Source: Okamejei kenojei
Taxonomy: Eukaryota
Direction of reading: 5' to 3'
DNA length: 64,000 nt
NCBI GenBank assembly: GCA_035221665.1
Contig: CM069162.1
Span: 25,854,001 to 25,918,000 of the forward strand
Part shown: one piece after another, positions 7,662 through 10,586 of the stretch
How positions within the stretch are numbered: the stretch's first letter is position 1
How the letters are laid out: every line of letters starts with the position of its first letter
Notes under the pieces: generated by a model
What the model saw: the letters and a program-made list of their open reading frames with translations, nothing else
Told to the model about the DNA's origin: nothing
Database searches by the model: none
Program-made: the position numbers and the translations under genes

Positions 7662-7706
7662 ATGGCTGACACCGTAGTGGACACCACCAAAGACGTTAAA
7701 ACTAAG
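7662..7706 (+). CDS. ptma: Prothymosin-like coding exon 1
   Basis: ATG...ACTAAG|gtgag; MADTVVDTTKDVKTK. Confidence 0.88.
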
Positions 7707-10586
7707 GTGAGATTTTTTGGCACGAACATAATTGAAAAATGGTCCTAAATTATTCTTGATGTTTAACCTTCCTCGTGTTCCCTTTGTTATCTCAAATTTC
7801 TGTTTGTGTGAAGCGCGCGTGTAGCCAGCGCGACCCAAAAGTGCGGACCTCCTGCACAAGGATGGTTTCAGGGCGATGTTTTGGGGGCTGAGGGGCGGCA
7901 GAGTTTTGTTCTGGTCCGTCAGGTTTTACTTTATTTTAATAAAGTTGAAAACTTGATTCTTGAGTGAATGTAAACACGGAGGTTCCCTGCCGCCCCCGGG
8001 TTGTCGGCGCTGCAGAGCCCCTGCGCTCGCTACCCTTTTTGTGTGAAAGTGCGCTCTTTCCGTGGTGACTGGCGACCGACCGGCTCCAGGGGTCGGGCGC
8101 TGTGGCGCGCCGTGTGGGGGGAACGGGATCGGTCTCTGGGTCGGTCGGGCGGGCGGGGTCCGGCGGTGGGACCGGGGTCTGTTGTACCCGGCAGACTGGC
8201 CCGGCGCCCAGTCTCTTAACCTGCGGGCATTGGCGGCCGCCGATGTACATCGTTCCCGCCCTCAGCATCCTTGCAGCTTCCCGAGGACCGGCGCCTTTTT
8301 CGAGCCCTGGACCCTCCCGGGAGCCGTTCCCTCACCATAACCTTTTCTTTCTCCGGACGCGCGTTTCACTCCGGTGATTCCACTCCACGCTCCGGACCCG
8401 GTCGCAAGACTCATCCGGCCGGTTTTGCTCCGTTTTGGCGCGGGTGCGAAGGGATGGGGGAGGAAAGAAAGTTGGATTAGGAGAACTCGACGACTACGCA
8501 CGGCGCCTGCATCGCCGCCGCTTCCCGCCCTTTGCTGACACCGGGTTTTGTTTTGTCCGACGGGACGAGGTTGAGGAAACGGCGGGAGTGGGAGCGCGCG
8601 CACGGATGCGGCGACGCACGCGCGGCAGCTCGCGCGGAGGGAGGGGAGGGGATGGGGGGGGAGGCGCGGGTGCGGGGCATGTCGTCGCCCAGTGGGAGGG
8701 GCGCGGGGCATGTCGTCGCCGAGGGGGAGGGGGAGGGGTGTGACCTCGCCCAGTGGGAGGAGGGGGCGGGGTGTGTCCGCCCAGATGGTGCGTGTGTGGG
8801 GGGGGGGGGGGGGAGTAGAGAGCGCCCGCGCGGAGGGGGGGGGGGGGGAGGGAGCGGAGCGCGCATCCGGGAGCCGTTGGGTTGGGCGCGCGGGGCGGGT
8901 GGAGGTCTCCGGGCGCCAGCGGCAGACCCGAAGTTTGCAAAATCTCACACGAGTGTTAATTAAATGGCAATCGAGCTTTGGTAAGGCTTTCGTTTCCTCG
9001 CTCTCACAGCGAAAGCACCGTGTCAACTGAATGTCTTTCTATGCATCGCCATCAATGGTTCTACAAGGTACAACACACGGCGATGTTTTTAAACTTGGCC
9101 TGAGAGATTGAAATCGAAGTCTTAGCGTGCGTGATGTGATGCTGGCTTCTCATCGCCGTTGCTTTGCGTCGGTGTCTTGCAGCCTGAAGCTCAGTCACTG
9201 CCATTTGGATTTAATGCGATGGGGCGCTTGCCGGGTTTGGTGGTCGTCGACATTTGCCGCGGCCTTTGGTGTTGCTCGAGTGAACACGAAGCGCGCAGGC
9301 TGGCAGAGAGACAGATCGCGGCAATGAATGGGCGCATGTAGTCGGAATGTCAGGGCTGCAAGCCGTACTGATGTTAAACACGACTTTAATGTGTTTTTTT
9401 CCTGTATTGCAGGACCTAAAGGAAAAGGAAAAGGAAAAGGCAACGGAGGAAATTGAAAAGAAAGAAAATGGAAGCGGCGATGCTCCAGCGAATGGAACAG
9501 TAGGTATTAAGATGGAGGGGCGGAGAATTGTCAAATAGTATCACGGGTTATGTTTTTTTTATAAGGGAAAGATCTCTTGGTTTGTTCGCAACTCTCTGCA
9601 AGACGTCTCCCATGAATCGCCAATGGTTTCTGCCATGTCCTACATGGTCATGTGGGAGGGGGCATATCCCATATTGTAGACACTTAACTAGTGAGATCAT
9701 GTACGTGTAACTTTAAATTTGTCATGTGATAATAATCTCTTGTACTTTTCTTACTATCGATAGCCTTTCAAAGTCCATATTATAACTACTCTGCCAAATG
9801 CAATGTACTGTATTCTGTAAATGGCATAATTGAGGCGTTTTGTATTTAGGAAGAGGAGGAGAATGGGGCAGAACATGCTGATGAGAATGCAGAGGAAGTA
9901 GACGAGGAAGAGGAAGACGAAGAAGATGGTATGTATCCAGGATACATTTTGAATTTGATACAATTTTTGTAAATCCTTACGTGACATAAATGTTTTCAGC
10001 AGTCTAGTTGTTAATACTTTGGTTAAGTGGCACTACGTTCAATTTTATTACGATGTATTCAGCGTTCATCGTTAATTTTGTGCACAGATTTTGGTTGGTA
10101 ACAAATGTTTATCATCTAGGTGAAGGTGAAGGTGAAGAGGATGGTGATGAGGAAGAAGGTGCTGAGGAGGAAGGAGATGATGCAGATGGCCATGCAGCAA
10201 AGCGTCCTGCAGAGAAGGAGGTTTGTGTGGATTTTTTTTAAGTTGTTTTGACTAAAATGTTAAATTCTAAAGTAAATTACTGAATTGGTATGTGTTCTGT
10301 CAAATTTCAAATTTTGTTATTAGGTGTGCTAATTCCTGATCTCAAGGCTATTGGCCATATAAGTATGATATCGTGTCAGAACACAATAGGGGCTTGACAG
10401 TACTTTTAAGTGCATAAAAGGTAAATTCATCGAATCACTGAATGCTATAGAAAGTATGCTGTTCATTTTGGTTGGACATTGAAGTTTTAAGCCACTAATT
10501 TCCTCGTTTTCCTCCAGGATGAAGTTGAAAGTAAGAGGAAAAAGTCAGAAAATGGAGAGTCAACAAAATCCAAGACTGAAGCTTAA
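7662..10586 (+). CDS. ptma: Prothymosin alpha-like protein (prothymosin/parathymosin family), 126 aa; join(7662..7706,9413..9499,9850..9928,10120..10220,10518..10586)
   Basis: Spliced product MADTVVDTTKDVKTK|DLKEKEKEKATEEIEKKENGSGDAPANGT|EEEENGAEHADENAEEVDEEEEDEEDG|EGEGEEDGDEEEGAEEEGDDADGHAAKRPAEKE|DEVESKRKKSENGESTKSKTEA*. All introns are GT-AG with consistent phases. Five-exon layout, DLKEK and ENGxDAPANG motifs, acidic core and basic C-terminal NLS as in PTMA. Exact orthology is uncertain. Confidence 0.88.
7800..9350. promoter_or_regulatory. CpG island in intron 1 with G-run (G-quadruplex-like) tracts
   Basis: Very GC- and CpG-rich. Long G runs at 8635-8900. Confidence 0.75.
9413..9499 (+). 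CDS. ptma: Prothymosin-like coding exon 2
   Basis: ttgcag|GACCTAAAG...GGAACA|gtaggt; DLKEK...DAPANGT. Confidence 0.9.
9850..9928 (+). CDS. ptma: Prothymosin-like coding exon 3
   Basis: tttag|GAAGAG...GATG|gtatgt; acidic tract. Confidence 0.85.
10120..10220 (+). CDS. ptma: Prothymosin-like coding exon 4
   Basis: tctag|GTGAA...AAGGAG|gtttgt; ...AAKRPAEKE. Confidence 0.88.
10518..10586 (+). CDS. ptma: Prothymosin-like coding exon 5 (NLS and stop)
   Basis: ctccag|GATGAA...GCTTAA; DEVESKRKKSENGESTKSKTEA*. Confidence 0.88.
   Translation, partial: DEVESKRKKSENGESTKSKTEA

What the first reader, a model, noticed from the sequence alone, without database searches (positions are those of the whole stretch)
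7662..10586. Prothymosin/parathymosin hybrid-looking gene beside slc45a1: candidate third paralog lost in mammals
Seen: an intact 5-exon, 126-aa gene convergent with slc45a1. Its N-terminal half is PTMA-like (MADT.VDT, DLKEK, ENG.DAPANG, EENG). Its C-terminus KRKKSENG plus extension resembles PTMS (KRQKTENGASA) more than PTMA (KKQKTDEDD). Known (recalled): human PTMA is at 2q37 near COPS7B and PTMS at 12p13 near COPS7A/ATN1/ENO2. SLC45A1 is at 1p36 beside RERE/ENO1, a region paralogous to 12p13, with no such gene that I know of. Inference: a whole-genome-duplication paralog retained in cartilaginous fish that may preserve the ancestral family state.
Basis: partly seen in the sequence, partly recalled or inferred. 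Interest (0 to 1): 0.72.

Follow-up and report, generated by a model that had tools for sequence, protein, structure and literature searches.

The report
Third prothymosin gene, lost in amniotes

Summary
The gene is real: five GT-AG exons, 126 aa, all four introns spliced in public runs. It is not a moved PTMA: this genome holds a separate PTMA-type gene on C14, 166 kb from pde6d. It is not shark-specific: it groups with frog, lungfish and teleost proteins. Its frog member NP_001039169.1 is already listed as absent from amniotes (PMC10416458 Table S1; PMC6871517). It lies on the eno/rere/park7 chromosome, but rere is 15.8 Mb away, not next door. Best reading: a third genome-duplication copy (about 0.7), probably working as a disordered acidic histone H1 chaperone (inferred). 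Still open: the block that holds parathymosin in amniotes was not found in this assembly, all 8 parathymosin-type proteins I named are amniote, and trees do not reject parathymosin as this group's amniote orthologue (p 0.47). 'Ancestral state' is supported only for exon 2, and only under one rooting.

The parts
6001..10000 (.). CpG island over promoter, exon 1 and intron 1
   Evidence: CpG observed/expected 0.84-1.14 in 1-kb bins against mostly 0.1-0.5 elsewhere
7534..7661 (+). 5' UTR (approximate start of transcript)
   Evidence: contigs of runs X3 and X12 begin at 7534 and 7541; contigs cannot fix a start exactly
7662..7706 (+). coding exon 1, 15 codons, same peptide as Narcine P0042
9413..9499 (+). 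exon 2: DLKEK, KE run, ENG..DAPANG (PTMA-like state)
9850..9928 (+). exon 3: EENGAEH (group motif NG[AT]xH) and acidic tract
10120..10220 (+). exon 4: acidic tract, DGHAAKRPA; a second acceptor 6 nt downstream is used in 3 of 4 runs
   Evidence: weak Pfam PF03247 match E 0.24
10200..10211 (+). KRPA, likely first half of a bipartite nuclear localisation signal (inferred)
   Evidence: sequence; KRPA in 15 of 19 group members, 0 of 21 PTMA, 0 of 8 PTMS
10518..10586 (+). exon 5 coding part: KRKK basic cluster (10533-10544), ENG, short extension, TAA
10587..11327 (+). 3' UTR, AATAAA at 11306, poly(A) site about 11327
25748..42211 (-). convergent SLC45-family gene (slc45a1 by recall), stop at 25748, first coding exon inside 41678-42211

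Best explanation
This is an intact, spliced prothymosin-family gene that belongs to a third group, separate from PTMA, found in sharks, rays, bony fishes and frogs; it is likely the genome-duplication copy of the 1p36-type chromosome that amniotes lost, and its protein probably works as a disordered, highly acidic nuclear chaperone of linker histone H1. Shown: gene, splicing, separate ptma locus, group membership, chromosome context. Inferred: (a) origin in the two early vertebrate genome duplications, giving PTMA beside COPS7B/PDE6D, PTMS beside COPS7A/MLF2 and this gene on the ENO1/RERE chromosome; (b) the 'hybrid' look needs no recombination: exon 2 (ENG..DAPANG) is the old state kept by PTMA and this group and rebuilt in parathymosin, while the back half (EENGA, DGH..KR, K[TS]ENG) is shared with parathymosin as its nearer relative; (c) mechanism: the two basic clusters take it to the nucleus, and the -35 acidic chain binds the basic H1 tail by charge alone, as PTMA does, speeding H1 exchange on chromatin in dividing cells.
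For: Separate ptma: PTMA-type exons on G000:C14:4,597,797-4,610,261, 166 kb from pde6d, same chromosome arm as cops7 and armc9; its three clean exons are 78% identical to shark PTMA and 35% to the window protein. X. tropicalis and sharks also hold both kinds. Tree of 48-49 hand-picked rows: PTMA 98/98, PTMS 100/100, third group 90/85 and 95/78; a clade of shark PTMA plus shark third-group proteins is rejected, p 0.0016. NG[AT]xH in 19 of 19 group rows, 0 of 21 PTMA, 0 of 8 PTMS. The 37 best hits are all of this group; 33 of 33 named ones are anamniote. P0007 is NP_001039169.1, listed with zebrafish and coelacanth orthologues and none in amniotes by local synteny (PMC10416458 Table S1); primers of PMC6871517 translate into P0010/P0007. 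Paralogous chromosomes: eno, rere, DJ-1 on C32; cops7, mlf, ptma on C14; COPS7A, MLF2, PTMS, ENO2, ATN1 in one chicken block (PMC12937304). Mechanism: composition; PTMA-H1 charge complex (PMC7661507 abstract).
Against: No parathymosin-type gene was seen in any anamniote: 8 of 8 looked up (of 17 found) are amniote, so three genes were never seen in one genome. AU tests do not reject PTMS nested among frog or shark members (p 0.47, 0.47, 0.37). Support for the third group is below the starred level, on 103 low-complexity columns, with no outgroup. The PTMS block could not be found here: TPI, GAPDH, a second MLF, a second atrophin and a second enolase all gave no match. rere is 15.8 Mb away and no frog or fish neighbourhood could be read. 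The search profile was built mostly from this group (16 of 17 rows), which inflates its scores. Exons 2-3 of the C14 ptma carry indels. No function was tested for this protein.
Confidence: 0.7

Rival explanations
1. This group is simply parathymosin of anamniotes: one gene that moved beside COPS7A/MLF2 in the amniote stem and rebuilt its first two exons, so the family has two members, not three.
For: Distributions are complementary in my sample (33 of 33 named group hits anamniote, 8 of 8 named PTMS amniote). Turtle and bird PTMS share DGH..KR, EENGA and K[TS]ENG with it. AU p 0.47. NCBI names several members 'parathymosin' (Narcine, Salmo, Chanos).
Against: PTMS sits beside COPS7A and MLF2, mirroring ptma with cops7 and mlf on C14; a chance move to the exact paralogous neighbourhood is unlikely. 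Two synteny screens found no amniote orthologue for the frog gene. The best tree keeps the group whole.
Confidence: 0.16
2. A small-scale duplicate of PTMS or PTMA in the jawed-vertebrate stem that landed on the 1p36-type chromosome by chance, not a genome-duplication copy.
For: No paralogous gene pair was found right beside it: rere and eno are 16 Mb off; 116 of about 600 frames in the 130 kb to the left gave no convincing family.
Against: All introns kept, so not a retrocopy; it sits on one of the chromosomes expected for a duplication copy; age matches (sharks and bony fish in both clades).
Confidence: 0.1
3. A true chimera: front half from PTMA and back half from PTMS by recombination or gene conversion.
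For: Motif split at the exon 2/3 boundary: exon-2 motif in 16 of 19 group rows, 21 of 21 PTMA, 0 of 8 PTMS; C-terminal ENG in 18 of 19, 0 of 21, 8 of 8.
Against: One change (PTMS rebuilding exon 2) explains the pattern; identity to PTMA and to PTMS is alike (0.48, 0.46) and the group has motifs of its own.
Confidence: 0.03
4. The translocated one-to-one PTMA orthologue, or a shark-lineage copy of it.
For: Six genome-wide searches first found no other ptma, and exons 2-3 of the C14 gene carry indels.
Against: PTMA-type gene found beside pde6d; grouping with shark PTMA rejected, p 0.0016.
Confidence: 0.01

Closest known systems
Xenopus tropicalis 'prothymosin alpha like' (ptmap12, NP_001039169.1, ENSXETG00000006008), X. 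laevis LOC100127279, zebrafish gene 795027, coelacanth 102360646
   Same: Same group by tree and motifs; listed as absent from amniotes (PMC10416458 Table S1; PMC6871517).
   Different: Those lists give no cartilaginous-fish member (Callorhinchus column empty), no tree and no link to genome duplication. That 795027 is si:ch211-222l21.1 is recalled, not tested.
Prothymosin alpha (PTMA)
   Same: 15-codon exon 1, five exons, phase-1 third intron, ENG..DAPANG, thymosin-alpha-1-like start (profile match to PDB 2L9I, E 1e-6), acidic and free of aromatics.
   Different: Other locus (C14); lacks EENG[ED] (19 of 21 PTMA; recalled as the Keap1-binding stretch) and the acidic end after KT; has a basic-ENG end with an extension.
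Parathymosin (PTMS)
   Same: EENGA at the start of exon 3, K[TS]ENG end, DGH..KR shared with bird and turtle PTMS.
   Different: Lacks the MSEK start and the basic KE[RK]KK exon 2 (8 of 8 PTMS); keeps DAPANG; lies on the eno/rere chromosome, not shown beside COPS7A/MLF2/CD4.

Membership tests
Prothymosin/parathymosin family (PF03247) | Profile match | tested here: met
   Single exons score below the cut-off (exon 4 E 0.24); P0014, 85% identical over 100 columns, and the other group members carry PF03247. The joined protein itself was not scanned.
Prothymosin/parathymosin family (PF03247) | Short, extremely acidic, no aromatic residues, basic cluster near the C terminus | tested here: met
   126 aa, 42% D/E, net -35, 0 aromatic, KRKK
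Prothymosin/parathymosin family (PF03247) | Nuclear location and histone H1 binding | not testable with these tools
   inferred from PTMA (PMC7661507 abstract; PMC4774093 passages)
PTMA orthologue | Locus beside PDE6D, near COPS7B/NCL/ARMC9 | tested here: not met
   another gene holds that place on C14
PTMA orthologue | Groups with PTMA; EENG[ED]; acidic end after KT | tested here: not met
   (p 0.0016)
PTMS orthologue | MSEK start and basic exon 2 without APANG | tested here: not met
   defined on amniote sequences only
PTMS orthologue | K[TS]ENG end, EENGA | tested here: met
PTMS orthologue | Locus between MLF2 and LAG3/CD4 near COPS7A | tested here: not met
   neighbour is an SLC45 gene on the eno/rere/DJ-1 chromosome; amniote order
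PTMS orthologue | Species-tree-like nesting with PTMS | tested here: inconclusive
   not the best tree, not rejected: p 0.47, 0.47, 0.37
Third group (frog ptmap12 type) | Clade and own motifs NG[AT]xH, KRPA, extended ENG end | tested here: met
   90/85 and 95/78 support; 19 of 19, 15 of 19, 18 of 19
Third group (frog ptmap12 type) | Same neighbours (slc45a1) in frog, gar, teleosts, coelacanth | not testable with these tools
   no such genomes are held; only the frog position chr7:96.2 Mb is known
Whole-genome-duplication ohnologue | Older than the shark/bony-fish split and on a paralogous chromosome | tested here: met
   that these chromosomes form one paralogon is established knowledge, recalled
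Whole-genome-duplication ohnologue | All three copies in one genome | tested here: inconclusive
   PTMS block not found in the assembly
Whole-genome-duplication ohnologue | Rooted tree with a jawless or invertebrate outgroup | not testable with these tools
   no outgroup recognised among the 145 hits (most unnamed)

The most novel reading that the evidence does not exclude
Reciprocal loss: sharks, fishes and frogs kept this copy and lost or never kept true parathymosin, amniotes did the reverse, so every fish or shark 'parathymosin' in databases is this third gene, and amniotes swapped one H1 chaperone for a rebuilt sister. The frog gene may be essential at gastrulation: the supplement of PMC6871517 lists a morpholino for the prothymosin homolog and none for foxo1, while the text assigns the early-lethal knockdown to foxo1.
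Probability: 0.25. Interest if true: 0.58.

Novelty: new member of a known kind. Interest (0 to 1): 0.36.

Why it matters
It sorts out a mislabelled family: the same gene is filed as 'parathymosin', 'prothymosin alpha', 'alpha-A', 'alpha-B-like' or 'ptmap12' in different species, so fish, frog and shark work on 'prothymosin' may mix two genes. It pushes a gene known only as a table entry back to the shark/bony-fish ancestor and gives a natural variant for asking which PTMA features (H1 binding, Keap1 site, thymosin alpha-1 release) are old. The core claim, loss in amniotes, is already in print, which caps the surprise.

Tried and rejected
Family search PF03247 in the genome missed even the window gene, so it is uninformative. 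Searches found no second family gene, yet ptma was there: these blanks show low sensitivity, so the blank for ptms proves nothing. In one search, 30 of 116 matches and, 30 of 50 were read in context. C14:1.14-1.34, 4.64-4.84, 0.61-0.81, 0.94-1.14 Mb and 100 kb behind rere hold no family exon. C865 and C9 hits were chance. Neighbours left and right of the window were not identified; ERRFI1 search rang only at C14:60.1 Mb. A caspase-site regex did not separate the groups usefully. Atlas searches gave family only; no RNA holder listed on record; expression rests on the lay. Expression of the C14 ptma was not tested. No structure or complex job was sent: the protein is expected to be disordered. 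Paper searches (open-access library only) found no paper with a family tree, a three-ohnologue model or an anamniote ptms locus; PMC10768021 text and 10 supplements name no PTMS, its synteny figure is not readable. The supplement PDF of PMC6871517 (Figure S1) could not be read and bears on which morpholino was lethal. The paper gives a 146-nt amplicon where P0010 predicts about 94 nt, unexplained.

Full report
Observation. The gene model holds exactly: five exons on the plus strand (7662-7706, 9413-9499, 9850-9928, 10120-10220, 10518-10586), all introns GT..AG, 126 aa, phases 0,0,1,0, under a CpG island. Laid on four public runs, introns 1-3 are joined as modelled in 3 of 4 runs each and intron 4 in all 4; one contig covers all five exons without a differing letter; poly(A) starts at 11327; a second acceptor 6 nt into exon 4 is also used. 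Three of these runs are only guessed to be RNA; the fourth is on record as RNA and comes from a related organism. The convergent gene is SLC45-family with its stop at 25748; 'slc45a1' is a recalled name.

Relatives. Exon 2 found a frog protein; searching on gave a coherent group in frogs, lungfish, teleosts, Narcine and Scyliorhinus. In one search (120 of 344 hits listed) the 37 best are all of this group and the 33 named ones are all anamniote; the first amniote hit is ordinary PTMA. The profile was built mostly from this group, so the ranking is partly by construction. Sharks (Heptranchias, Rhincodon) and X. tropicalis also have canonical PTMA. Exon 1 encodes the same peptide as in Narcine, so the window is probably from a ray or skate.

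Tree and motifs. I chose 47 of the roughly 240 proteins held, leaving out redundant and pseudogene-like mammalian rows, added the window protein and named the groups before building the tree. On 103 columns PTMA (98/99) and PTMS (100/99) are firm and the third group, with the window gene, has 90/85 (95/78 with the C14 gene added). A clade of shark PTMA with shark third-group proteins is rejected (p 0.0016). PTMS nested with frog, frog plus lungfish, or shark members is not rejected (p 0.47, 0.47, 0.37). Motifs: the exon-2 NG..P..NG motif is in 16 of 19 third-group, 21 of 21 PTMA, 0 of 8 PTMS rows; the K[TS]ENG end in 18, 0, 8; NG[AT]xH in 19, 0, 0. If the root lies between PTMA and the other two, exon 2 is ancestral and PTMS rebuilt it; the C-terminal ENG cannot be called ancestral. 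No outgroup was recognised.

This genome. The window is C32:25.85-25.92 Mb. Many genome-wide searches missed a second family gene, but walking the pde6d region found PTMA-type exons at C14:4,597,797-4,610,261, 166 kb from pde6d, with armc9, an ncl-like acidic gene (named by recall) and cops7 within the first 1.4 Mb. Its three clean exons are 78% identical to shark PTMA, 35% to the window protein, and join shark PTMA at 100/100; exons 2-3 carry indels. C32 carries an enolase (9.4 Mb), rere (10.0 Mb) and a weak DJ-1 exon (25.03 Mb): the 1p36-type chromosome, but rere is 15.8 Mb away and the 100 kb behind it hold no family exon. The block that holds PTMS in amniotes (COPS7A, MLF2, PTMS, CD4, TPI1, ENO2, ATN1, GAPDH in chicken; PMC12937304 passage; PMC12077880 passages) was not found: TPI, GAPDH, second MLF, second atrophin and second enolase all blank. 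A ptms gene therefore cannot be tested here.

What is in print. PMC6871517 (passages, sections 7, 22, 23 and part 1 of 2 of supplement 1 seen) lists X. tropicalis ENSXETG00000006008 'prothymosin homolog' among nine genes lost in warm-blooded animals; its three primers translate into stretches of P0010/P0007, one of them unique to P0010 among 241 proteins. PMC10416458 (passages and one supplement row) lists NP_001039169.1, which is P0007, with zebrafish and coelacanth orthologues and none in 3 non-placental mammals, 4 birds, 6 reptiles or Callorhinchus. The text reports no induction in tail regeneration for this gene, but text and supplement disagree on which gene had the early-lethal morpholino (preprint 10.1101/494609 passages). 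PMC11955638 and 10.1101/2022.11.22.517520 (passages) call si:ch211-222l21.1 prothymosin alpha, in cycling catfish B cells and zebrafish neutrophils; that this is the same group is recalled. Ten searches of the open-access library found no family tree or three-ohnologue model; subscription papers are not covered.

How it likely works. The protein is 42% D/E, net -35, without aromatics, with two basic clusters near the end: the build of PTMA, which binds histone H1 as a disordered charge complex and chaperones it (PMC7661507 abstract) and has a nuclear signal, Keap1 binding and proteolytic processing (PMC4774093 passages). Because that binding rests on charge, I infer the same activity here (about 0.8 as a working likeness). 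The EENG[ED] stretch of PTMA (recalled as the Keap1 site) reads EENGA here, so Keap1 binding is predicted to be weaker. A CpG-island promoter and deep contigs in three runs fit a broadly expressed gene, though contig depth is a poor measure. None of this is tested.

Verdict. The main rival, that this group is parathymosin of anamniotes (0.16), stays open until an anamniote MLF2-LAG3 interval is read. Novelty: new member of a known kind; interest 0.36.

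Noticed in passing
   Followed up: partly
G000 whole assembly: TPI, GAPDH, a second MLF, a second atrophin and a second enolase gave no match: the 12p13-type small chromosome seems missing from the assembly, which matters for any gene-loss claim made on this genome.
   Followed up: partly
G000:C14:4,597,797-4,610,261 (-), L238-L240: The ray's PTMA-type gene: exons 1, 4, 5 clean, exons 2-3 with indels in a stretch rich in gaps and simple repeats; assembly error or decay is undecided. 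Its end reads KRKT instead of KQKT.
   Followed up: partly
window 10120-10126: Tandem acceptor of exon 4: a form shorter by one Gly-Glu pair dominates in two related organisms.
   Followed up: partly
G000:C32 10.0 Mb and 25.0-25.9 Mb; C14 0.67-4.8 Mb: Gene order differs from human: rere/eno lie 16 Mb from slc45a1; pde6d lies 3.4 Mb from cops7 and in tandem with ptma.
   Followed up: partly
G000:C32:25.774-25.777 Mb (L127) and 25.949-25.952 Mb (L161): Retrovirus-like env and pol frames on either side of the window; observed only.
   Followed up: no
window 1-3200: Two broken LINE-type reverse transcriptase remnants, one nested in the other.
   Followed up: no
PMC6871517 text versus supplement 1: The text names foxo1 homolog as the fourth induced gene with a lethal morpholino, but the supplement lists a morpholino and Myc test construct for the prothymosin homolog and none for foxo1; the preprint says morpholinos for 'the rest five genes' stopped embryos after gastrulation.
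   Followed up: partly
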